Shown here piece after piece: positions 2,897 to 13,827 of a DNA stretch of 29,385 nt. Made by a program: the position numbers and the translations under genes. Origin of the DNA: Parcubacteria group bacterium (GTDB taxonomy: Bacteria; Patescibacteriota; Minisyncoccia; Minisyncoccales; JAVHRH01); NCBI GenBank assembly GCA_036171555.1, contig JAVHRH010000069.1, positions 1-29,385 on the forward strand, in the 5' to 3' direction. How positions within the stretch are numbered: the first letter of the stretch is position 1; each line of letters starts with the position of its first letter. The notes under the pieces are model-generated. The model did not search any database. It had not been told where the DNA came from and worked only from the letters and a program-made list of their open reading frames with translations.

Positions 2897-3370
2897 CTAG
2901 CTAGAATTGTATCTTATTTTCTTTATCTTGTAAGCTGTCTGGATGGGAGAAGAAACAATAACTTTATCGCCCGCCCGATGGCCCAGCAAAGCTTTGCCTA
3001 CCGGCGATTCATTGGAAATCTTACCGACCGAAGGATTGGCCTCCAGAGAACCGACTAAGGTGAATTCATCGTTCTGACCGTCAACTTCCACCGAAACCGT
3101 CGCCCCCAGATTAATGGTATTTTGTCTTTCCTTGTTGGGGCTTTTGATAATTTCAGCATTTTTCAAAGTATTCTCCAATTCGGCCAATCTTATTTCCAAA
3201 AAGCTCAAATCTTCCTGAAAAGCCAAGTATTCGGGATTCAAATCTTCTGAATGTAAAAGCTTCGGAGATTCTCCTTTGGTTTTAGCGAGCTTTAGCTCTT
3301 TCAGATCGCGATATTCCCGTTTTAACCTTTCTAATCCTTCTTTAGTTAAATAAAACTTTTTTTCCTCCAT
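2897..3370 (-). CDS. greA: GreA/GreB-family transcription factor with a divergent coiled-coil tip
   Basis: LT.EG...L N-terminus and C-terminal LVGS.EANP...ISNESPVGKALLG...G signature. The tip reads HSEDLNPEY instead of GDLxENAEY. Confidence 0.85.
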   Translation of the reverse strand: MEEKKFYLTKEGLERLKREYRDLKELKLAKTKGESPKLLHSEDLNPEYLAFQEDLSFLEIRLAELENTLKNAEIIKSPNKERQNTINLGATVSVEVDGQNDEFTLVGSLEANPSVGKISNESPVGKALLGHRAGDKVIVSSPIQTAYKIKKIRYNSS

Positions 3371-3377
3371 GTTTTTT

Positions 3378-3402
3378 ATAAAATCCCCTGTAGCGAGGGG
3401 AC
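3378..3402 (-). terminator. Terminator-like hairpin just upstream of the greA start
   Basis: Minus strand: gtcccct-cgctac-aggggattttat, ending about 8 nt before the ATG. Confidence 0.4.
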
Positions 3403-3605
3403 TTATAGTTTTTAATTAGTGTGGCTATAAATCCTCTCAGCAAATCATTTTACCAAAAGTCAAAACCAAAATGGCGTAAGACCATTTAGCAAGATGAGGA
3501 TTATTTCTGATTTTTTCTTTACTGGTTATTATCATGTTTTAGTTTAGAAAATTAAGTAAGATGTCTTTTTTTCTTTGTTTTCTAAAGTTTCTTTCCGTAT
3601 AATCC

Positions 3606-3634
3606 ATATTAGACAAACCATGAAAGGTTGTCAA
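3606..3634 (-). promoter_or_regulatory. Sigma70-type promoter ahead of the greA leader
   Basis: TTGACA (3634-3629), 17 nt, TAATAT (3611-3606). Confidence 0.55.
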
Positions 3635-3639
3635 GTACC

Positions 3640-3714
3640 AAGCTTTCGCTACGCGAAAGCGCAGGTGGAAAAGAAGATTTATCTTCTTTGACTGCCGAAC
3701 TCCGCTACGCGGAG
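3640..3714 (+). repeat. Double-hairpin element copy A3 plus an extra ctccgc-tac-gcggag hairpin
   Basis: 3640-3692 matches A1, with a compensatory G-C to A-T pair in stem 2 (aaagaAgat..atcTtcttt). Third hairpin at 3700-3714. Confidence 0.85.
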
Positions 3715-3731
3715 CAAGCCGAAAAATAGAG

Positions 3732-4613
3732 TTACACTATCGGCGGATTCCAACCCTTAGGCGTTAGAGGCAATTCCCCGACTGAAACATCAATATGTTT
3801 TACGCCAGATTCTAATCTTATTTCTTTGGCGATGAAATTTTCAATGCTTTCCAAATTAGGCGTAACAATGCTGACTAATAAATTATATCTCCCAGAAATT
3901 TTTACTAAATGATAAACCAAAGGAGATTTTTCAAATTTTTCGATAAGTTGATTAATTGTTTTATTGTCTGCTTCAATTTCAATGTGGGCACTGACTGAAT
4001 ATACTTTTCCCATATTTAACAACCCTTGAATTTTCAAAACTCCGTCTGCTATCAATCTTTCTACACGATTTTTAATGCCGACGGGGCTTAGCCCTGTTCC
4101 TTTGGCAATTTCCACAAATGATTCTCTACCATCTTTGGAAAGAGCCTGAATAATCTTTAAATCCAATCCATCTAGTCTCTCTAAACTCCAAGGCGCATAA
4201 GCAGAATATCCTTCAACAGAAAAATCAGCTAAACCTGTTCTATCGCACAAAACAGCAAATTTTATATCTTTTATTTTTAATCTTTCTTTTTTAGCCCTCA
4301 TCGCCTCCATGGCTCTTTTATAGCTTTTGCCAGAAATTATATCATTATCAACCAACAATATTTTTCTTCCCCTAATCTTTTCCTCTGCCAACATCTTTCC
4401 GTTATCGTCCATCTGGACAAAAATAATATTTTTATTTTTGTGGCTTAACCACTGATAAAGACCTAGACCATAAATGTAGCCATCGTCTCCCAAACCAACA
4501 ATAGCTCCCTTGTCTTTTTTAAAATATTGGACAACGCTTTTGCCGATACCATCGATAAATTTTTGAATTGGCGGAAGATTATAGAGAATATTTTTCGGCA
4601 TATTTTTTAACAT
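3732..4613 (-). CDS. Lrp/AsnC transcriptional regulator with an N-terminal phosphoribosyltransferase-like domain
   Basis: Residues ~1-135 carry a PRPP-loop-like motif (KILLVDNDIISGKS). Residues ~147-293 carry an AsnC HTH (LDGLDLKIIQALSKDGRESFVEIAK..GLS..GIKNRVERL) and a RAM domain (ISGRYNLL). The start may be 4601. Confidence 0.75.
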   Translation of the reverse strand: MLKNMPKNILYNLPPIQKFIDGIGKSVVQYFKKDKGAIVGLGDDGYIYGLGLYQWLSHKNKNIIFVQMDDNGKMLAEEKIRGRKILLVDNDIISGKSYKRAMEAMRAKKERLKIKDIKFAVLCDRTGLADFSVEGYSAYAPWSLERLDGLDLKIIQALSKDGRESFVEIAKGTGLSPVGIKNRVERLIADGVLKIQGLLNMGKVYSVSAHIEIEADNKTINQLIEKFEKSPLVYHLVKISGRYNLLVSIVTPNLESIENFIAKEIRLESGVKHIDVSVGELPLTPKGWNPPIV

Positions 4614-5466
4614 AATATTTTATTAATTGATCTTTAATTTCAGGATTAGCAACCGCAATCAATAAATCAACTTTATCATGCTGCCTCCCGGGAATAAATT
4701 CGTAATCTTTATAATTGCCGTCGGAATCAACGCTAATCACCGAGCAACCGGCACATTTTGCCATCGGAAAACCGGGATCGATTTCCGAACGGGGTTCATC
4801 AAACATTACATAAGCATCAATTAAGCCCGAAGCCAAATAAGCATAAATAAATGAACCGCCCTGTGGATAAAGCAGAGATTTAGAATGCAGATTTTTTAAT
4901 AAATCTCCGAAAATATCCAAGAATTTAGAAGAGTATTGAGAGCTCATTACATAAGAGGCTAAAACAATGGGTTCAGTTATTTTTTTTCTAGATGAGGAAA
5001 AAATTTTCTTCTTCCCATTATTTTTCATATCTAATAGATAGTTTTCACCATTATTCATAATGTAAAATTTTTCATTCAAAATGTCAGCAATTCCAGTGGC
5101 AATTGGTCTTCTTTCTTTGTCATAAAAACTCAGAGCAGTGTACCAATTCTGTTCAAATCCCCTTAAAAAAAGAACTGAACCGTCAAAAGGGTCAATTGAA
5201 CCATAAATTTCAGGATTTTCTCCGCCAGTTTTAATATCTCTACCGTCCGGCTCGGAAAAAATAGTTGCTTTTAATTTGTATTTTTTAACGAGTTTTTCCG
5301 CAATTTCCTCTCCTATTCTATCAATTCCGATTTCAATATCTTCCGGCCGATTTATCACCTCACCCAAAATCTCCCGGCCCTGGCCGGCCGCAGCTCTTTT
5401 CTTGACTTCTTCTGTAGTCAAAGTTAAATAATCAATGAGTAATTTTTTAATTTTTTCCTTGTCCAT
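4579..5466 (-). CDS. Inositol monophosphatase/FBPase-family phosphatase (candidate HisN-type histidinol-phosphate phosphatase)
   Basis: Metal motifs FSE and IDPFDGS, C-terminal EIDPG; lies directly downstream of hisC. Confidence 0.75.
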   Translation of the reverse strand: MDKEKIKKLLIDYLTLTTEEVKKRAAAGQGREILGEVINRPEDIEIGIDRIGEEIAEKLVKKYKLKATIFSEPDGRDIKTGGENPEIYGSIDPFDGSVLFLRGFEQNWYTALSFYDKERRPIATGIADILNEKFYIMNNGENYLLDMKNNGKKKIFSSSRKKITEPIVLASYVMSSQYSSKFLDIFGDLLKNLHSKSLLYPQGGSFIYAYLASGLIDAYVMFDEPRSEIDPGFPMAKCAGCSVISVDSDGNYKDYEFIPGRQHDKVDLLIAVANPEIKDQLIKYYVKKYAEKYSL

Positions 5467-5486
5467 GACTTTTAATTTACACCCAA

Positions 5487-6557
5487 TTAAACCACGCTGT
5501 CAAGCATCTCGCCAAGCGCTTTAATAAGAGATCCTGTATCTTTAAGAGTGCCGATGCTGATTCTAACTGCATCTTGCCCGTCAGCGGCCGATTTGGGCCT
5601 GACCAAAATACCTTTCTCTTTCAATCTTTCTATCAATTCTTTGGGATTGGGAACTTTCAGGAGTAAGTAATTAGCTGCGCTCGGATAAAAGAAAATCCCT
5701 TTTTCTCTCAAAAAATTCTCTAGTTTAGGCTTAGATTCCTCCATAACCTCCTTAATATAAGCTTCCATATATGGAATATCAGCCAAGGCAGACAGAATGC
5801 CGATTTTGGCGAACATATTAACGTCATAAGGTCCTCTGATTTTCAGCAATTCCTGGATATTTTTTCCATTAGAAATGACATAACCCGCCCGGCTCGCCAC
5901 CAACCCAAAAGCTTTGGCGAAAGTCCTTAAAATATAAAGGTTGTCGTATCTTTCTATTAAACCCTTGGCCGTGATTTTAGCGAATTCAAAATAAGCCTCG
6001 TCGTGCAAAACAGCTATATCTTTTTCTTTCGCCTTAATTAAGATTTTTTCAATATCTTCGATGGAAATCGCACTGCCTAAAGGATTATTGGGATTGCAAA
6101 GAATAATCAATTTTACCTTTGGGTCTTCAATTAAATTAATAATTTCGGCCAAAGGCAGTTCTCCCTGTTCATTGTATCGCGGCTCTAAAATTTCGGCTCC
6201 TTGAATGCCGGCTGATTGATAGTGCATGGCAAAAGCCGGAAAAGGAATAATAACTTTATCCCCTTCGCCTAAATAAGCACGGCAGACAAGATCAATTCCC
6301 TGGTCGCCGCCATTAGTCACCATAGCTTCGTCCGCTTTTACTCCGGCATATTCGGCAATCTTTGCCTCCAAATCACCGTATTCCGGATAAACCTGTAATC
6401 TGTCTAGGTCAACAAACTTTCTCAAGGCCTCTTTGACTTTGAGGCTGGCCGGAGTCGTCCTCTCGTTGAAATCTAAAAGTAAATAATCTTTAGAACCGCG
6501 CCCTTCGAGGGGCGGTTTGTAATGACCCATTTTTTTGATTCTGTCTTTGATTGCCAT
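5487..6557 (-). CDS. hisC: Histidinol-phosphate aminotransferase
   Basis: Class I/II PLP motifs NE, TNGGDQGI, CNPNNPLG, DEAY, RTFAKAFGL..RAGY (PLP Lys), ANY, RISIG; adjacent to hisB. Confidence 0.85.
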   Translation of the reverse strand: MAIKDRIKKMGHYKPPLEGRGSKDYLLLDFNERTTPASLKVKEALRKFVDLDRLQVYPEYGDLEAKIAEYAGVKADEAMVTNGGDQGIDLVCRAYLGEGDKVIIPFPAFAMHYQSAGIQGAEILEPRYNEQGELPLAEIINLIEDPKVKLIILCNPNNPLGSAISIEDIEKILIKAKEKDIAVLHDEAYFEFAKITAKGLIERYDNLYILRTFAKAFGLVASRAGYVISNGKNIQELLKIRGPYDVNMFAKIGILSALADIPYMEAYIKEVMEESKPKLENFLREKGIFFYPSAANYLLLKVPNPKELIERLKEKGILVRPKSAADGQDAVRISIGTLKDTGSLIKALGEMLDSVV

Positions 6558-6561
6558 TTTT

Positions 6562-7152
6562 TTAAATTAAACCTTTAGTGCTTGGTAATTCTTGTAAAAT
6601 TCTTTTTTCTTTTGAACAGGCCATTTTCATGGCTTTACCGAAAGCCTTAAAGAGCGATTCGGCTTTATGGTGCTCATTTTCTCCGTATAAAATTCTGACG
6701 TGCAGGGTTGCTTCGGCATGCCTGACAAAACCCCAAAAAAATTCCTTAATTAAGTCCGAATATAAATCGCCAATTTTTTCTTTTTTGAACTGACAATCAA
6801 AATTTAAAAATGTCCTGCCGGAGATATCTGCCGACACTACCGAAAGCGCCTCATCTAAGGGAAAAACAAAATAACCGGACCGATTAATTCCTCTATTGTC
6901 GCCAAGGGCTTCTTTAAAAGCTTCGCCAAGACAAATACCAATATCTTCTACTAAATGATGCTGGTCAATTTCAATATCACCCTTAGCTTTAATCGTTAAA
7001 TTAAATAGTCCGTGTTTGGCAAAATTATTCAAAAGATGATCCAAAAAAGGAATGGAAGTGGAAATGTTTGCCTTGCCCGTTCCATCGATATTTAATTCTA
7101 TTTTTATATTGGTTTCTTTGGTTTTCCTTTGAAATAACGTTTTTCTTGACAT
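6562..7152 (-). CDS. hisB: Imidazoleglycerol-phosphate dehydratase (monofunctional)
   Basis: RKTKET, PFLDH, two HHxxE motifs (DQHHLVED, NEHHKAE), PLDEAL and terminal PSTKG. ATG 7152 follows an extended -10 box. Confidence 0.95.
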   Translation of the reverse strand: MSRKTLFQRKTKETNIKIELNIDGTGKANISTSIPFLDHLLNNFAKHGLFNLTIKAKGDIEIDQHHLVEDIGICLGEAFKEALGDNRGINRSGYFVFPLDEALSVVSADISGRTFLNFDCQFKKEKIGDLYSDLIKEFFWGFVRHAEATLHVRILYGENEHHKAESLFKAFGKAMKMACSKEKRILQELPSTKGLI

Positions 7153-7159
7153 ATGTGTT

Positions 7160-7195
7160 ATTTTATCATTATTTGACAAAAATTCAAATAATGAT
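7160..7195. promoter_or_regulatory. Divergent promoter region with a perfect 12-7-12 palindrome
   Basis: ATCATTATTTGA-caaaaat-TCAAATAATGAT (7165-7195). It overlaps the hisB extended -10 TGaTAAAAT (7168-7160, minus) and a TTGACA at 7173-7178 (plus). Confidence 0.6.
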
Positions 7196-7233
7196 GTATT
7201 GTAAAATATGTTCTTTATAGGGAGGTATTAATA

Positions 7234-8031
7234 ATGGAGAAAAAAATTCAGGCTATCTTGGTGGATATCGATGACTGTCTGCTGCCGACTGATGGCTACC
7301 CGTACATAGGCTACTTTCAGGGTCTGCAAATAATCGCCGGGTATGTGAAAAAAGCAAATGAAGGAAGATTTCCCAAAATAAGTTTTTGCACGGGACGGGA
7401 CAGGAATTACGTCGAAGCGGTTGCTTTCTCTGTCGGCCGACCCAATTCCTGGTCGGTAATTGAAAGCGGCATTGCTCTTTTCAACCCGACAACCAAAGAA
7501 CTAGTTTTAAATCCCGCCTTGACCCCAAAAGTCAAAGATGCGTTCGAAATCATTCGACAAGAAAGATTGCCGGGGATTCTCAACAGATTCACAGGACTAT
7601 TTGATTACCCAGGCAATATGATCAACATAGCCCTGGAACGCAAATTCGGGATAGATACTCCGATTGAACAGTGCTATGCCGCAGTCAGGGAAGAACTCCA
7701 AGACCTAGAAAGCCAAGGATTAGTGACTATCCGCCACAGCCGGATTGCCGTGGATATCAGTCCTCAGGGAATCGATAAGGCTTCGGGCATACGATTTCTG
7801 TCTGAAAAGACCGGAGTGCGCCCCAGCCAAATGCTGGGCATCGGAGATTCAAAAGGAGATTTCCCGATGTTAAATCTGGTCGGCTATGTCGGCTGTCCCG
7901 ATAACGCTAGCAAGGAATGCAAAGAGTTGGTCAGAAAGCGGCAAGGTCATCCTTCTCGCGCCGAATATGCTAAAGGCGTAGAAGACGTCATTAATCACTT
8001 CCGAATACATCATCTCATCGATGAGGGCTAA
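7234..8031 (+). CDS. HAD-superfamily hydrolase, subfamily IIB (Cof/SPP-like)
   Basis: Motif I VDIDDCL, motif II CTGR, motif III DKASG, motif IV GDSKGDFPML; SD AGGGAGGT at 7219-7226. Confidence 0.88.
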   Translation: MEKKIQAILVDIDDCLLPTDGYPYIGYFQGLQIIAGYVKKANEGRFPKISFCTGRDRNYVEAVAFSVGRPNSWSVIESGIALFNPTTKELVLNPALTPKVKDAFEIIRQERLPGILNRFTGLFDYPGNMINIALERKFGIDTPIEQCYAAVREELQDLESQGLVTIRHSRIAVDISPQGIDKASGIRFLSEKTGVRPSQMLGIGDSKGDFPMLNLVGYVGCPDNASKECKELVRKRQGHPSRAEYAKGVEDVINHFRIHHLIDEG

Positions 8032-9022
8032 TCCGCTCCAGCCCTCTTTTTTTTATAAGTTTATAAAGAAATTCAATTCCTTCGGTTCTTTTTAAAACAT
8101 AATCTTTAAAGTATTTTTTTCCTTTTGGATTACTCACCGAAAAATAACGAAGCAGGCCCCACCATACTTGCATAACTGGAACCGCTATCGCCAACCAATA
8201 AATTTGATTTCTGTCAAAACACTGATTGTATACTTCATCAACGACTTTTAGAAACTTATCGTACAGAGTTTTATCGACCGGTGGATTGCGAAAAACGTTA
8301 TCGGCAAAAAAATAGCCCAAATCGTATAAAATTCCTCCCCTTTCGTTCATTCCGGCATATTCAAAATCTAACAGATATAACTTGCCATCATTCCCAACGA
8401 TAATGTTTTGGAAAAGAAAATCATTATGCGCCGGAACTCCTTTTTTAAGAATAGTAATTTTATTCTTAACTTCTTTCTCAATCTTTTTCAAATTTAAAAT
8501 AGTTTTTATATCTATAAATTTAGGTATGGCATGTCTTTCAACGGCAACTCTATATTTAGCAAGCTCATCACGAAAAACATCATATTCATTAACAAAACAG
8601 ACGTCGCTCGTATGAAAAATATTAAATAATTTCGCTAATTTTTCCTGATATCTCTTTGTTTTAAAAAGAGACAAGTCAAATAACTTTCCTTCAATATATT
8701 CGGCCAGCATTGTGCCGTCAGGCAGGTTAAAAGTTTCGCGGCTCTTTGGATTCAGAATATTTTTATTATTCAAAATATACAAATAATATCTTGGCAAAAT
8801 CTGCTTTAATTTTTTGTTCCTGTTTAAAGCTAAAATGTTTTTCCCTTCAATTTTCCTGTTGATAACAGCTGTTTCCCAGGGCAAACGAACAAAAAATTTC
8901 TTGTTTTCATGTTGAACAATATAATTCCTGTTCGTCTGTCCGCCGGCCTTGGTAATTTTAATATTTTCCGGCCGCCAGTCCTTATTCAGACGAGAAATCA
9001 ATTGAATATCTTTTTTAATCAT
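8015..9022 (-). CDS. Choline/ethanolamine/thiamine-kinase-family (APH-like) phosphotransferase
   Basis: GGQTNRNY loop, Brenner motif HNDFLFQNI and LLDFEYAG motif; start overlaps the hisD stop. Confidence 0.85.
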   Translation of the reverse strand: MIKKDIQLISRLNKDWRPENIKITKAGGQTNRNYIVQHENKKFFVRLPWETAVINRKIEGKNILALNRNKKLKQILPRYYLYILNNKNILNPKSRETFNLPDGTMLAEYIEGKLFDLSLFKTKRYQEKLAKLFNIFHTSDVCFVNEYDVFRDELAKYRVAVERHAIPKFIDIKTILNLKKIEKEVKNKITILKKGVPAHNDFLFQNIIVGNDGKLYLLDFEYAGMNERGGILYDLGYFFADNVFRNPPVDKTLYDKFLKVVDEVYNQCFDRNQIYWLAIAVPVMQVWWGLLRYFSVSNPKGKKYFKDYVLKRTEGIEFLYKLIKKRGLERISPHR

Positions 9023-10205
9023 TACATTTGAACCTTATTTCAACAGATTTTTTGTGGGCGTCTAATCCTTCCATCTCAGCAAATTTTGAAGCAACTTTAG
9101 CTAGTTTTTTAGCACCCTTTTTATTTATATATTGGTATGTTGGTATTTTAACAAAATCTTTCACTGATAATCCACCAGTATATCTAGCCGTTTTGTTGGT
9201 AGGGAGAACATGGTTTGTTCCTGAACAATAATCGCCAAAAGCTACGGCTGAATAATCGCCGAGAAAAAGAGAACCATAATTCTCAAATTGGTTAAGGTAA
9301 CTTTTTGCATTTTTAACCTGAACTGACAAGTGCTCCGGAGCTATTTTATTGGCGATTTTAATCGCCTCCGCTAAATTTTTAACTAAGATTGTCTTTTTAT
9401 TTTTGAACGCCCTTTTGATTATATTTTTCGTTACCAGTTTTTCGATTTGAAGTTTTAATTCATTATTTACTTTTTTGATTAAATCTTTAGAGTCGGTAAC
9501 AAAAAATATTTTTGTCATCACGTCGTGTTCGGCCTGACCTAAGAGATCGGCGGCGATGAATTTGGGATTAGCATATTTATCAGCCACTAATAAAATTTCA
9601 GTCGGACCGGCTAAAAGATCGATCCCGCAATCCCCGAAAATTTCCTTTTTAGCCGTAGTAACGTAGATATTTCCAGGTCCGACAATTTTATCTACTTTTG
9701 GCACAGTTTTAGTTCCGTAGGCCATGGCCGCTACGGCCTGAACGCCACCAATATTAAAAATTGAATCGGCTCCAGCTAAATCGGCTGCGACTATTGTCGT
9801 TGGTCTTATTTTCGGCGAACAAACAATAATTTTTTTTACGCCCGCCACTATAGCTGGAACGATGCACATCAAAGAAGTCGAGGGTAATGGATATCTGCCC
9901 CCTGGAACATAAACTCCTATTTTTTCGATCGGAATAATTTTCTGCCCAATCGTTATTCCATTCTTTGTATATTCAAAATCTTTAAAATTCCGGAATTGAG
10001 CCATGGCAAACTCCTTGATATTTTTAGCTGCAACTTTTATTGTCTTAACGGTTTCTTTATCCACCATTTTATAAGCCATGGCTATTTCTTTTCTGCTCAC
10101 TCTAAAATTATTCAATTTAATCTTATCGAAAACCTCCGTATATTTTCTGACGGCTTTATCTCCGTTTTTCTTCACATCTTCAATTATATTTTTTACTGTT
10201 CCCAT
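9015..10205 (-). CDS. hisD: Histidinol dehydrogenase
   Basis: YVPGG, GGVQAVAAMAYG, KIVGPGN, GID..AGPTE, QAEHD (Zn ligands), APEHL (catalytic), GDY.SGTNHVLPT and EGLDAH. Confidence 0.9.
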   Translation of the reverse strand: MGTVKNIIEDVKKNGDKAVRKYTEVFDKIKLNNFRVSRKEIAMAYKMVDKETVKTIKVAAKNIKEFAMAQFRNFKDFEYTKNGITIGQKIIPIEKIGVYVPGGRYPLPSTSLMCIVPAIVAGVKKIIVCSPKIRPTTIVAADLAGADSIFNIGGVQAVAAMAYGTKTVPKVDKIVGPGNIYVTTAKKEIFGDCGIDLLAGPTEILLVADKYANPKFIAADLLGQAEHDVMTKIFFVTDSKDLIKKVNNELKLQIEKLVTKNIIKRAFKNKKTILVKNLAEAIKIANKIAPEHLSVQVKNAKSYLNQFENYGSLFLGDYSAVAFGDYCSGTNHVLPTNKTARYTGGLSVKDFVKIPTYQYINKKGAKKLAKVASKFAEMEGLDAHKKSVEIRFKCND

Positions 10206-11398: not shown

Positions 11399-12676
11399 TC
11401 AAAACAAAGTCTTTTGTTGATTTACTTCTTTTTTCTCTCCTTGGGGGAAAATTCTGATTTTACCAAAAACGCCGTCATAACCCGGCTCTTTGGAAACCTT
11501 TCCTTCTCTGACCCTGATAATGCCTTCGGCTATTTCCGGCCGAGTTACGGTAGCCAAATCCGATCGGGAAACATCAAGCAGAATGTTAAATTCCGAACCG
11601 AATTTTTCAATTAAAATTTTATATTCTTTTTCTACTTCTTTAGTGCCAACTCCCAGATTTAAAACATCAGCGATAATCTCGGCTAAAGGAACTAAACTTT
11701 TGAAAGGTATGGTATTTTGAGGCGCAAAACCTTCTGGCCTGTCAGCCAATTCTTCGACTCGATTCAAGACACCGACGGTTAAGGGCCGGCCGCAAACCGG
11801 GCAAATACCGTTGTATTTTTTCGTTTCTTGGGGCGACAACTTAACATTGCAAACGCGATGGCCGTCAAAATGATATTTGCCTTCTTCGGGAAAGAATTCG
11901 ATGGTATAAAGAAATTTTCCCGCCCCGTTAGAAATTTGATTTCTAACGGGGTAAAGATTTTTTCCTCTGATTACATTAATAATTCCTAAGTAAGACAATT
12001 CCGTATCAAAAACATTAGCTTCCCGGCCGATTTTTTGCGGCGAATGAGCATCTGAATTGCTTATTAAGGTAACCTTGTCCAGGGCAGACAATCGCCAATT
12101 CATAGAGGGGTCAGAAGAAAGTCCCGTTTCAATGGCATAAATATATTTGGCATATTCGTCAAAACATTCTTCAATCGAATCAAAGCCTGATTTGGAACCG
12201 AAAATAGCAAACCAAGGCGTCCAAGCGTGCGCCGGCACCACTAAGCAATCGGGGGAAGCGTTCAAAACGATTTTAGCTAATTCTTTAGCGTCCAAACCCA
12301 AAATCGGCCGGCCGTCTGATCTTAAATTGCCGATCCAACCCAACTGCGCATTGATTTTCTCTACTATTTCGAAAGAGGGCGCAAAAATAATAATATGAAC
12401 TTTCCTAACCTTTCCTCCCTTCGTATAGATGCAACTGATTTCCGTGGTCAGAATAAAACGGGTGCCACCATCTTGCTTTAACTTAAATAGACCCGACTCA
12501 GCCGGTATCAGTTTTTCTTTTAAATTGGCAAACCATTCAGGATGAGTGAAATCGCCTGTGCCCAAAACTTTAATGCCTTTGATTTTGGCCCATTTATCCA
12601 AACTTTCCAAATCCATATCGTGGCTGGTTGCCCGAGAATATTTACTATGGATATGAAAGTCGGCTATGAATTCCAT
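11399..12676 (-). CDS. Endonuclease Q-family protein (PHP domain plus Zn ribbon)
   Basis: ADFHIHSKYSRATS, GTGDFTHP, PAHAWTPW, ETGLSSD, SNSDAHS, GKYHFDGHR.C, CPVCG and PGYDGVFG motifs. Start set at MEFIAD. Confidence 0.85.
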   Translation of the reverse strand: MEFIADFHIHSKYSRATSHDMDLESLDKWAKIKGIKVLGTGDFTHPEWFANLKEKLIPAESGLFKLKQDGGTRFILTTEISCIYTKGGKVRKVHIIIFAPSFEIVEKINAQLGWIGNLRSDGRPILGLDAKELAKIVLNASPDCLVVPAHAWTPWFAIFGSKSGFDSIEECFDEYAKYIYAIETGLSSDPSMNWRLSALDKVTLISNSDAHSPQKIGREANVFDTELSYLGIINVIRGKNLYPVRNQISNGAGKFLYTIEFFPEEGKYHFDGHRVCNVKLSPQETKKYNGICPVCGRPLTVGVLNRVEELADRPEGFAPQNTIPFKSLVPLAEIIADVLNLGVGTKEVEKEYKILIEKFGSEFNILLDVSRSDLATVTRPEIAEGIIRVREGKVSKEPGYDGVFGKIRIFPQGEKKEVNQQKTLF

Positions 12677-13827
12677 AAGGGTAATTGAGAGATGGCTCCC
12701 AAAACAAAAATAATCATTAAAAAATACAATAGCCAACCGGGTATTTTCAAGCTATATTCCGGCAGCCTGTCGCCCAAGGTTTTGGCCTTTTTGAAAATCA
12801 AAATAATAATTATTCCTTCAATAACACCGACGAAGGCGCCGATAAAACCAATGATGTTAATAAAGCTGCGCAAACCTAACAGATAGAGGAGGAAGGGAAA
12901 ACCTGTCGCAATTAAAAAAGACATTTCCCCAGGAAATTTCAAGTCGTGAATAAAGGTATTCATCAGATAAAGACCCAAAACCAGGAAAGAATCGGCCAGG
13001 GTGATAACGCCGGCTAAAACTCCTAAAAGAACCAGCTTTTGGCCTAAAACGGACAGTAAACCGGAGAAAAGATCGGGTGAAATATTTTTACCGGAAATCC
13101 CAATCAGAATAAAGGAAAAACAAAGATAAAAAGCAATGACAATGATTGCCGATAAAATGATTATCTTTTTTATTTCTTTTTTCTCGGCTGAACTTTTAAG
13201 GAGATCATTAATCTCGGGCAAAGCCGACCAGCCCACCAAAGAAAAGAGGATAACTCCGTAAGGCAAAAGAACGTTGGCTGAACTTAAAAACGCAAAATTT
13301 GAAAAGTCTAGTTGAGGCAGGCCGAACCAAAGAATCAGAAAGATGGCGGCAAAAAAGAGGACATTGGTAAAAATTTCGGCCGGGGCAATTATTTTTAGCC
13401 CTCTCCAGATGAAATAAGACAAAACTAGCCAAAAAATAAAAACGAACCAAAAAGATGATGGCGAACCGATTGACGGAAAGACGGCGGAAAATAAAATTTT
13501 CAGAAAATCACCTCCCAGAATGATATAGGCTAAAAGGCTGCCGACTACCCCGAAGAGAACCGAAAAAACAGCTAAAATTTCGCCGGGTTTACCCAGATAT
13601 TTTTTAGCGAAACCGGGCAAGCGATATTTTTCATTGGTTCTCAAAATTATTTCGCCAAAAAATAAGTGAATCAAAGTGACGGCTGCTCCCAATATCAAGA
13701 GATAAAAAAAGCCGGGGATAATCCCGCTTCTGTCGATGACGTAAGGCAAACCGAAGATGCCAGCCCCTATAGTTGTCCCAAGCAAAACCGAAAGAGAGAG
13801 AAAAAAACGTTTGTTGCTGAGAAACAT
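12664..13827 (-). CDS. Aromatic amino acid permease family transporter (Trp/Tyr permease / AAAP-like)
   Basis: GTTIGAGIFGLPY motif, about 11 hydrophobic helices, PYGVILFS. Confidence 0.8.
   Translation of the reverse strand: MFLSNKRFFLSLSVLLGTTIGAGIFGLPYVIDRSGIIPGFFYLLILGAAVTLIHLFFGEIILRTNEKYRLPGFAKKYLGKPGEILAVFSVLFGVVGSLLAYIILGGDFLKILFSAVFPSIGSPSSFWFVFIFWLVLSYFIWRGLKIIAPAEIFTNVLFFAAIFLILWFGLPQLDFSNFAFLSSANVLLPYGVILFSLVGWSALPEINDLLKSSAEKKEIKKIIILSAIIVIAFYLCFSFILIGISGKNISPDLFSGLLSVLGQKLVLLGVLAGVITLADSFLVLGLYLMNTFIHDLKFPGEMSFLIATGFPFLLYLLGLRSFINIIGFIGAFVGVIEGIIIILIFKKAKTLGDRLPEYSLKIPGWLLYFLMIIFVLGAISQLPLWNS

What the first reader, a model, noticed from the sequence alone, without database searches (positions are those of the whole stretch)
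3732..4613. PRTase-like domain fused in front of an Lrp/AsnC regulator
Seen: an N-terminal alpha/beta domain with ILLVDNDIISGKS (canonical PRPP loop hhhhDDxxxTGxT, here D-N), followed by an AsnC HTH and a RAM domain. Established: PurR and PyrR of Bacillus reuse PRT folds as PRPP/nucleotide sensors, RAM domains bind amino acids, and His synthesis consumes PRPP and ATP. Inference: a dual-input regulator reading PRPP or purine nucleotide plus histidine. I do not recognise this domain order.
Basis: partly seen in the sequence, partly recalled or inferred. Interest (0 to 1): 0.62.

Follow-up and report, generated by a model that had tools for sequence, protein, structure and literature searches.

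The report
PyrR-like sensor domain on Lrp regulator
A tiny-genome bacterium (Patescibacteria) has a DNA-binding Lrp/AsnC regulator with a stripped-down phosphoribosyltransferase-like domain on its front end; the gene sits at the end of its histidine genes and probably lets the cell read a phosphoribosyl metabolite as well as an amino acid, a build not described before but made of familiar parts.

Summary
Window 3732-4613 (minus strand) encodes a 293-aa protein with three parts: a ~140-aa N-terminal domain, an AsnC-type HTH and a RAM domain.

The N-terminal domain is a minimal type-I PRT fold:
- AF2 gives pLDDT 90.7.
- The best structural match is PyrR (Z 13.9), followed by HGPRTs.
- The PRPP-loop remnant VDNDIISGKS is conserved.
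- The flexible catalytic loop, the hood and the catalytic Asp position are missing.

So it is probably a sensor, not an enzyme.

The family is rare and lineage-restricted. It occurs in 46 of 401 genomes of the order and was not found in the rest of the class sample. It forms one AlphaFold-DB fold cluster, and no paper was found.

It is linked to his genes. It is the last gene of a his cluster, and relatives carry the full hisF/A-hisG-hisD-hisB-hisC operon. Of 34 genomes with IGPD, 28 carry it, against 18 of 367 without.

In four genomes a HisG-like domain replaces the mini-PRT domain at the same locus.

The ligands (PRPP or a nucleotide; histidine) and the operator are untested. This genome itself lacks hisG, hisA/F and hisI, and 18 genomes keep the regulator without IGPD.

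The scan had already noted this architecture on other genomes. Verdict: a new variant of a known kind (PurR, PyrR and GfcR logic), of moderate interest.

The parts
3732..4613 (-). Whole gene: mini-PRT + AsnC HTH + RAM regulator, 293 aa (a second Met at codon 5 is also conserved in relatives)
4194..4613 (-). N-terminal minimal type-I PRT-like (PyrR/HGPRT-like) domain, residues 1-~140; core strands at 36-41, 63-68, 84-92, 116-124, 131-135
4323..4361 (-). PRPP-loop remnant ILLVDNDIISGKS (residues 85-97). In 38 family members D89 is kept in 34, N90 in 34, D91 in 35, T/S94 in 37, G95 in 38 and K96 in 36
4032..4175 (-). AsnC-type winged HTH, residues 147-194
   Evidence: PF13404 42.8 bits, PF13412 42.1 bits
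3780..3983 (-). RAM (Lrp/AsnC ligand-binding) domain, residues 211-278
   Evidence: PF01037 35.7 bits
4579..5466 (-). IMPase-family gene (candidate histidinol-phosphate phosphatase) whose end overlaps the regulator's start by 35 nt. It lies immediately upstream in 24 of 40 related genomes
5487..6557 (-). HisC-type aminotransferase (TIGR01141 259.6 bits, just under the 276.55 cut-off)
6562..7179 (-). hisB (IGPD only). The likely true start is the ATG at 7152, judged from alignment with relatives
7149..7211 (.). 63-bp dyad (perfect 12-bp arms ATCATTATTTGA-7-TCAAATAATGAT) filling the hisB/HAD divergent promoter region. It is a candidate operator in this genome only and is not conserved in relatives
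8015..10205 (-). hisD (9015-10205) and the coupled choline-kinase-family gene (8015-9022), the upstream half of the local his block
2897..3370 (-). greA, the conserved downstream neighbour (39 of 41 related loci), separated by a 361-nt spacer

Best explanation
The gene encodes a one-component transcription factor with two ligand-reading modules.

The C-terminal 150 residues are a complete Lrp/AsnC unit: a wHTH for DNA binding and a RAM domain for an amino acid. By context the amino acid is most likely histidine (inferred).

The N-terminal 140 residues are a pared-down, PyrR/HGPRT-like type-I phosphoribosyltransferase core. It keeps the phosphate/ribose-binding loops (G45; D89-N90-D91; T/S94-G95-K96; D124-R125; D130-F131). 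It has lost the flexible catalytic loop, the hood and the catalytic-base position. It most likely no longer catalyses and instead binds a phosphoribosyl compound as a second signal. PRPP is the first candidate and a nucleoside 5'-phosphate such as AMP the second.

The protein is made from the last, translationally coupled gene of a his cluster. It probably controls that cluster and itself. Because it survives in relatives that have lost the his genes, it probably has at least one further target.

Shown here: the domain folds, the pattern of residue conservation, rarity, his linkage, and alternation with a HisG-like domain at the same locus.

Inferred: non-catalysis, ligand identities, targets, and whether it represses or activates.
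For: - Domains and folds.
- Lost loop and hood: in the HMM alignment PyrR has 16 extra residues between strand 2 and the PRPP strand and about 40 residues after the DR motif, where this family has about 15. VIA aligns model residues 12-136 to PyrR residues 19-168.
- Conserved ligand-loop positions across 38 members down to 44% identity. The position matching the HGPRT catalytic Asp is I/V (motif comparison from established HGPRT knowledge).
- The same mini-PRT domain is fused to HTH_17, to TrmB-HTH and to a receiver domain in other proteins, and only 70 clusters exist among 1.84 billion representatives.
- his linkage: the full operon hisF/A-hisG_b-hisG_a-hisD-kinase-HAD-hisB-hisC-IMPase-regulator is present in G526. 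hisG x2 lies next to the 44%-identical P0122. Co-occurrence table: 28 both, 6 IGPD only, 18 regulator only, 349 neither.
- A HisG_b-like domain with a degenerate P-loop is joined to the same HTH-RAM at the same locus before greA in G457, G363, G628 and G693. Three of the four have no hisA/F, hisD or IGPD.
- PRPP synthetase is present in this genome.
- Precedents: the PRT domain of PurR binds PRPP and (p)ppGpp (PMC8789054), and the PRT domain of GfcR binds sugar phosphates (PMC10838023).
Against: - No ligand, DNA site or activity was measured.
- This genome has no hisG, hisA/F or hisI, so PRPP is not a substrate of its remaining his steps.
- 18 of 46 regulator-bearing genomes have no IGPD.
- The PPi-loop equivalent is acidic (D43-D44-G45), where PyrR has K-T-R-G. 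The second acidic residue of the PRPP motif is Asn. Both could weaken Mg-PRPP binding.
- No operator shared between loci was found; the dyad at 7149-7211 is not conserved.
- The HisG-Lrp form may be a deletion scar rather than a functional equivalent.
Confidence: 0.55

Rival explanations
1. The N-terminal domain senses a pathway phosphate ester rather than PRPP or a nucleotide. Candidates are imidazoleglycerol-P, imidazole-acetol-P and histidinol-P. The local late-step his genes would then be induced by their substrate, in the way the PRT domain of GfcR was retuned to sugar phosphates.
For: - This genome and many relatives keep only the late steps plus a kinase, so a substrate signal would make sense.
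- The regulator is translationally coupled to the IMPase-family phosphatase.
- The acidic D43-D44 loop and the conserved D124, D130, F131 and Y136 could suit an imidazole/amine group better than Mg-pyrophosphate.
- GfcR is a precedent (PMC10838023).
Against: - The ribose-binding D89 and the phosphate loop T/S-G-K are kept exactly as in nucleotide-binding PRTs.
- Replacement by a HisG-like domain points to a phosphoribosyl or adenine-nucleotide ligand.
- The regulator persists where no his enzyme is left.
Confidence: 0.17
2. The N-terminal domain is still an enzyme: a small salvage phosphoribosyltransferase moonlighting on a regulator, as PyrR keeps UPRTase activity.
For: - PyrR is the closest fold and is bifunctional (NCBIfam name).
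- Very small PRTs exist, such as P. horikoshii 1vdm at 153 aa (Z 12.8).
- D89, G95 and K96 are conserved.
Against: - The flexible loop is about 16 residues shorter than in PyrR and the hood is missing.
- The second acidic residue is Asn in 34 of 38 members, the last Thr of TGxT is G/A/S, and the catalytic-Asp position is I/V.
- The NCBIfam PyrR model scores 17.8 bits against a cut-off of 138.
- The genome has three other PRT-family genes over the Pfam cut-off.
Confidence: 0.1
3. The N-terminal domain binds no small molecule. It would be an oligomerisation or partner-docking module, for example for the co-translated IMPase-family protein. The protein would then be a general feast/famine Lrp whose his linkage is inherited synteny.
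For: - Gene order around it (AA permease - unk445 - [his genes] - regulator - greA - HD) is conserved across the order whether or not his genes are present.
- The 29-35-nt overlap with the IMPase-family gene is conserved.
- Type-I PRTs are obligate dimers (established knowledge).
Against: - The conserved residues are the canonical ligand loops, not a surface patch.
- The phyletic association with IGPD is strong, with an odds ratio of about 90, though related genomes are not independent.
- The same domain is attached to several unrelated DNA-binding or receiver modules, the usual behaviour of sensor domains.
Confidence: 0.12

Closest known systems
PyrR (Bacillus/Mycobacterium pyr operon regulator with UPRTase activity)
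   Same: Closest by both sequence profile and structure: E 2.6e-10, TM 0.66-0.69, Z 13.9. It shares the ...VDxx..TGxx......DR... and ...AD[FY]... motifs. In both, a PRT fold is reused to read nucleotides for gene regulation.
   Different: PyrR is a stand-alone 180-aa protein that binds RNA and keeps a long flexible loop, a C-terminal extension and enzyme activity. Here the domain is 140 aa, lacks those parts and is fused to a DNA-binding Lrp module. The NCBIfam PyrR model scores far below its cut-off.
PurR of Bacillus subtilis and other Firmicutes
   Same: A DNA-binding regulator whose PRT-like domain is a non-catalytic effector pocket, with PRPP as inducer and (p)ppGpp as anti-inducer (PMC8789054).
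   Different: PurR has an N-terminal wHTH followed by a C-terminal full-size PRT domain, and no RAM domain. Its structural match is weaker (1o57, Z 8.9). No RelA/SpoT synthetase was found in this genome.
GfcR of Haloferax volcanii
   Same: A PRT-family protein turned into a transcription factor whose pocket binds phosphorylated metabolites (PMC10838023).
   Different: GfcR has an N-terminal HTH motif followed by the PRT domain. It regulates sugar catabolism and has no Lrp/RAM unit.
Classical Lrp/AsnC feast/famine regulators (PH0140, FL11/PH1519, LrpC, E. coli Lrp and AsnC)
   Same: The C-terminal 150 residues match them end to end in sequence (E 1.8e-14) and in fold (E 5e-11).
   Different: Classical members are about 150-aa two-domain proteins. 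None of the solved ones carries an extra N-terminal metabolite-binding domain.
HisG-like-Lrp fusions of Patescibacteria (earlier scan finding e1-2056196; here G457, G363, G628, G693)
   Same: The HTH-RAM module is 52-66% identical and sits at the same locus before greA. The Y-x-P-W linker is the same. The N-terminal module likewise derives from a PRPP-binding enzyme and has a degenerate phosphate loop.
   Different: Its N-terminal fold is HisG (type IV ATP-PRT), not type I. Three of the four genomes (G363, G628, G693) have no other his gene; in G457 hisD was not searched, no IGPD was found and hisA/F gave only weak hits. It was probably derived from the mini-PRT form by a deletion running from hisG_b into the regulator gene (inference).

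Membership tests
Lrp/AsnC (FFRP) transcription regulators | AsnC-type winged HTH | tested here: met
   PF13404 42.8 bits (cut-off 27) at residues 147-187; fold match to PH0140, FL11, AsnC and Lrp
Lrp/AsnC (FFRP) transcription regulators | C-terminal RAM (beta-alpha-beta-beta-alpha-beta) effector/oligomerisation domain | tested here: met
   PF01037 35.7 bits (cut-off 25) at residues 211-278; model strands and helices at 207-279; PDB sequence hits E 1.8e-14
Lrp/AsnC (FFRP) transcription regulators | Two-domain, ~150-aa build | tested here: not met
   293 aa, with an extra 140-aa N-terminal domain
Lrp/AsnC (FFRP) transcription regulators | Amino-acid-modulated DNA binding as a dimer or octamer | not testable with these tools
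   Needs EMSA and SEC with ligands
Type-I phosphoribosyltransferases (Pfam Pribosyltran) | Five-stranded alpha/beta PRT core fold | tested here: met
   AF2 pLDDT 90.7; Z 13.9-8 to 41 PRT-fold chains; Foldseek prob 1.00
Type-I phosphoribosyltransferases (Pfam Pribosyltran) | Family HMM score over the curated threshold | tested here: inconclusive
   24.9 bits in the whole protein, 26.8 bits for the domain alone, cut-off 26.3
Type-I phosphoribosyltransferases (Pfam Pribosyltran) | PRPP motif: two adjacent acidic residues, then x-x-x-T-G-x-T | tested here: not met
   The motif reads D89-N90 (Asn in 34 of 38 members) ... T/S94-G95-K96-[G/A/S]97. The first acid, TG and K are kept; the second acid and the last Thr are lost
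Type-I phosphoribosyltransferases (Pfam Pribosyltran) | Flexible catalytic loop and hood subdomain that close over base and PRPP | tested here: not met
   About 16 residues fewer than PyrR between strand 2 and strand 3, and only about 15 residues after the DR motif
Type-I phosphoribosyltransferases (Pfam Pribosyltran) | PRPP-dependent transferase activity | not testable with these tools
   Needs an enzyme assay
PyrR | Equivalog-level sequence similarity | tested here: not met
   NF003549 scores 17.8 bits against a cut-off of 138
PyrR | Binding of pyr-leader RNA | not tested
   No pyr attenuator was searched for. Rfam finds only a tRNA in the window
PurR/GfcR-type HTH-PRT regulators | Domain order: N-terminal HTH, C-terminal PRT | tested here: not met
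   The order here is PRT-HTH-RAM
PurR/GfcR-type HTH-PRT regulators | PRT pocket used as a non-catalytic effector site | not testable with these tools
   Inferred from the lost catalytic parts and conserved loops

The most novel reading that the evidence does not exclude
The regulator is a true two-input gate for a minimal cell. The mini-PRT domain would read PRPP or adenylate status and the RAM domain would read histidine. The same HTH-RAM chassis has twice been fitted with unrelated PRPP-binding enzyme folds (type-I PRT-like and HisG-like) as interchangeable sensors. These would be pseudoenzyme sensor domains swapped at one locus within single genera.
Probability: 0.3. Interest if true: 0.7.

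Novelty: new variant of a known kind. Interest (0 to 1): 0.55.

Why it matters
Patescibacteria have very few transcription factors and almost none has been studied. A regulator that combines a nucleotide/PRPP-type pocket with an amino-acid pocket would show how such cells tie the remains of an amino-acid pathway to precursor supply.

The compact 125-aa PRT core recurs on AsnC, HTH_17 and TrmB HTHs and on a receiver domain in CPR bacteria and DPANN-like archaea. It would be a new, portable sensor domain of the PurR/PyrR/GfcR kind.

The alternation with a HisG-like domain gives a natural experiment on how enzymes become sensors when a pathway collapses.

Tried and rejected
- Operator hunt. The 63-bp dyad at 7149-7211 is unique in the window but absent from 11 orthologous hisB/HAD spacers. 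TTGTCAA is conserved upstream of hisB in 9-10 of about 12 loci, but not upstream of the regulator, the IMPase-family gene or greA. It may simply be the -35 box. Upstream regions of the regulator's own transcription unit were too heterogeneous for a shared motif. The promoter and terminator scans were at chance level.
- RNA element in the 361-nt spacer before greA: Rfam found nothing there.
- (p)ppGpp as ligand: no RelA/SpoT synthetase domain in the genome.
- Literature: no paper on a PRT+AsnC or HisG+AsnC architecture in the held library. The 2007 survey of his gene fusions does not mention one.
- The N-terminal ~100 aa of the archaeal 240-aa mini-PRT proteins gave no clear HTH match.
- ESM Atlas feature search of the N-terminal domain pointed to small phage PRT-like proteins at 0.92. 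This is a lead only and was not followed.

Full report
**The object**

Window 3732-4613 on the minus strand is one 293-aa ORF. Pfam finds three things:
- an AsnC-type HTH at residues 147-187 (42.8 bits, cut-off 27);
- the Lrp/AsnC RAM domain at residues 211-278 (35.7 bits, cut-off 25);
- a Pribosyltran match at residues 71-126 that is just under threshold (24.9 bits against 26.3).

The N-terminal domain scanned alone scores 26.8 bits, and 38 of 50 family members match Pribosyltran.

**Fold of the N-terminal domain**

A profile of 50 N-terminal domains (alignment A2) hits solved PyrR proteins at E 2.6e-10 and HGXPRT at 5.5e-7. The match covers profile positions 6-120 of 135.

AlphaFold2 on the domain gives pLDDT 90.7 and pTM 0.85. 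In the full-length model, residues 11-130 have pLDDT 94-98.

Structural searches agree:
- Foldseek against the PDB ranks PyrR first, with TM by query 0.66-0.69 and rmsd 2.7-3.0 Å over about 133 columns. HGPRTs and the 153-aa P. horikoshii purine PRT follow.
- An exhaustive VIA-align search of 48,161 chains puts M. tuberculosis PyrR on top at Z 13.9. The next 40 rows are all type-I PRT-fold proteins. B. subtilis PurR scores Z 8.9.

So the first refutation criterion, "does not adopt a PRT fold", fails.

The C-terminal half matches Lrp/AsnC structures such as PH0140, FL11, AsnC and Lrp.

**What kind of PRT domain**

Compared with PyrR, the family lacks about 16 residues of the flexible loop between strand 2 and the PRPP strand. 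It ends about 15 residues after the DR motif, where PyrR has about 40 more (model residues 12-136 align to PyrR residues 19-168).

Across 38 Lrp-fused members, down to 44% identity, these positions are kept:
- G45 and Y48 (38 of 38 each);
- K84 (37 of 38);
- D89 (34), N90 (34) and D91 (35);
- T/S94 (37), G95 (38), K96 (36) and Y98 (37);
- K118 (38) and A120 (38);
- D124 (38) and R125 (37);
- A129 (37), D130 (37), F131 (38) and Y136 (38).

These are the canonical PPi-loop, PRPP-loop and base-side positions. Three departures stand out:
- the second acidic residue is systematically Asn;
- the last Thr of TGxT is G/A/S;
- the position matching the catalytic Asp of HGPRT is I/V, as it is Tyr in PyrR. 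This motif comparison rests on established knowledge of HGPRT and PyrR.

I read this as a ligand pocket kept under selection with the catalytic apparatus removed. This is an inference.

**How common, and where**

- A word-indexed search found 412 clusters at 90% identity. The best 120 were all 270-293 aa, at least 74% identical and AsnC+RAM positive. The sources' names for them were "Lrp/AsnC family regulator", "hypothetical protein" (Nealsonbacteria) or "Lrp regulator/HGPRT".
- An exhaustive HMMER search of 1.84 billion representatives with the N-terminal domain alone found only 70 clusters, 3 of them below E 1e-30.
- In GTDB species genomes, 46 of 401 sampled genomes of the same order carry the protein (38 of 246 genera). 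In a class-wide sample of 401 genomes, only G000 and one other genome of the same order gave strong matches.
- AlphaFold-DB fold clusters contain exactly one cluster with the three-domain build (A0A837IM07, unnamed). The ESM Atlas has two such clusters.
- No paper describing the architecture was found.

The scan itself had noted the same architecture on several other genomes, and a follow-up had treated the HisG-Lrp variant.

**The mini-PRT domain as a portable module**

Other members of the 70-cluster family carry the domain in different settings:
- after an HTH_17;
- before an HTH_17;
- behind a TrmB HTH plus DUF5919, in proteins named by their sources as Pacearchaeota or Aenigmarchaeota;
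- before a receiver domain;
- behind about 100 unassigned residues in 240-aa proteins that sit in archaeal contexts with TFIIB, histone and fibrillarin genes.

It is the usual behaviour of a sensor domain.

**Link to histidine genes**

In the window the gene ends a block: hisD, kinase, HAD (opposite strand), hisB, hisC, IMPase-family gene, regulator. It overlaps the IMPase-family gene by 35 nt.

I fetched ±8 kb around 40 orthologues and mapped the window's proteins onto them. The regulator always precedes greA (39 of 41 loci). It follows a variable set of his genes:
- G526 and G496 have hisG_b, hisG_a, hisD, kinase, HAD, hisB, hisC, IMPase-family gene, regulator.
- In G526, hisA and hisF lie directly upstream.
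- Others keep only hisB-hisC-IMPase, hisC-IMPase, IMPase alone, or nothing.
- A 44%-identical member (P0122) sits beside two divergent hisG genes.

Phyletic pattern in the same 401-genome order sample:

| | regulator present | regulator not found |
|---|---|---|
| IGPD present | 28 | 6 |
| IGPD not found | 18 | 349 |

That is 28 of 34 against 18 of 367, an odds ratio of about 90. Related genomes are not independent, so this overstates the significance.

The second refutation criterion, "common and unlinked to his genes", therefore also fails.

Two caveats remain:
- G000 itself has no hisG, hisA/F or hisI (the genome is 94% complete), so PRPP is not consumed by its remaining his steps.
- Eighteen genomes keep the regulator without IGPD. 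For example G591 has neither hisD nor IGPD.

**HisG-like replacement**

In G457, G363, G628 and G693 the gene before greA is a ~392-aa ORF. It consists of a HisG catalytic-type domain (PF01634, 87-94 bits) followed by the same AsnC HTH and RAM, which are 52-66% identical to the window's.

Details of the HisG part:
- It is closest to the divergent paralogue HisG_b.
- Its phosphate loop is degenerate: EFS[RK]xG[ND][IV]L, against DVTETGISL in HisG_a.
- The Y-x-P-W linker that ends the mini-PRT domain is retained in front of the HTH.

G363, G628 (a one-contig genome) and G693 have no hisA/F, hisD or IGPD.

The two forms alternate within genera. In g18, G477 and G515 have the mini-PRT form and G363 the HisG form. 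In g390, G543 and G591 have the mini-PRT form and G628 the HisG form.

In a tree of the HTH-RAM module, three HisG-Lrp rows group together (support 90/97). The fourth is unresolved, and a single origin is not excluded.

The simplest origin (inference) is a deletion from inside hisG_b to inside the regulator gene, in an operon ordered as in G526. This would remove the pathway and create the fusion in one event. That agrees with the earlier follow-up's reading.

Either way, the HTH-RAM chassis is kept with an N-terminal module derived from a PRPP-binding enzyme. This makes PRPP or an adenine nucleotide the leading ligand candidates. The genome has PRPP synthetase and no RelA/SpoT synthetase, which argues against (p)ppGpp.

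**Targets**

I could not define an operator.
- A 63-bp dyad with perfect 12-bp arms fills the hisB/HAD spacer (7149-7211). It overlaps promoter-like boxes in both directions. It is not conserved in 11 related spacers.
- TTGTCAA is conserved upstream of hisB but not elsewhere, and may be the -35 box.

**Verdict**

This is a real, conserved, lineage-restricted three-domain regulator. It is Lrp/AsnC by its C-terminal half, with a PyrR-like pseudo-PRTase sensor added at the N-terminus. It works like PurR, PyrR and GfcR in reusing a PRT pocket, but it is not a member of those families: the domain order, size and HMM thresholds are not met.

The dual-input reading is the best-supported mechanism (about 0.55). 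The ligands and targets remain to be measured.

Noticed in passing
window 7149-7211: A 63-bp dyad (arms 28 nt, 75% complementary; core ATCATTATTTGA-7-TCAAATAATGAT is perfect) spans the whole hisB/HAD divergent spacer. It interleaves promoter-like boxes for both genes. It is not conserved in 11 orthologous spacers.
   Followed up: partly
L105:7380-8558, L106:5559-6746, L107:7317-8492, L108:7998-9191: HisG_b-like domain + AsnC HTH + RAM fusions (~392 aa) sit at the same locus before greA. Three of the four genomes have no other his genes. They alternate with the mini-PRT form within genera g18 and g390. The Y-x-P-W linker of the mini-PRT form is retained.
   Followed up: yes
L074 (G526:C1:38331-55203) and L013:4238-5974: Two tandem hisG paralogues. 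HisG_a has a canonical P-loop (DVTETGISL). HisG_b has a degenerate one (EFSNTGYSL) and may be a regulatory pseudoenzyme subunit.
   Followed up: partly
window 4579-5466 and 24 related loci: The IMPase-family gene overlaps the regulator's start by 29-35 nt. The pair stays together even where hisB, hisC and hisD are elsewhere or absent (family f11, for example L081, L082, L084, L085). HisN equivalog similarity is very weak (21.9 bits against 275), so its substrate is open.
   Followed up: partly
window 3732-10205; genome G000: A late-steps-only his block (hisD, hisB, hisC-like, phosphatases, kinase) with no hisG, hisA/F or hisI found in a 94%-complete 578-kb genome. The kinase and HAD genes are regular members of the cluster even in relatives with the full operon.
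   Followed up: partly
window 3371-3731: The 361-nt spacer between the regulator and greA holds two hairpins just after the stop codon, a TTGACA-17-TAATAT box (3634-3606) and a 22-codon ORF. Rfam finds nothing there.
   Followed up: no
upstream of hisB in L070, L072, L074, L075, L078, L088, L090-L092: The heptamer TTGTCAA, usually preceded by a T-run, is conserved upstream of hisB in 9-10 of about 12 loci. The background rate is 0.34 per kb. It is either a -35 box or a half-site.
   Followed up: partly
L110:4001-4738, L112:4001-4729; P0153: The same mini-PRT domain occurs in about 240-aa proteins in archaeal contexts (TFIIB, histone, fibrillarin, diphthamide genes). It also occurs in a 593-aa TrmB-HTH/DUF5919 protein named by its sources as Pacearchaeota or Aenigmarchaeota.
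   Followed up: partly
window 11399-12736 (minus): A conserved 445-aa protein (precomputed Pfam MJ0043_C in relatives; weak PHP_C hit here) with an amino-acid permease next to it (12664-13827). The pair forms the fixed upstream neighbour of the his/regulator block across the order.
   Followed up: no
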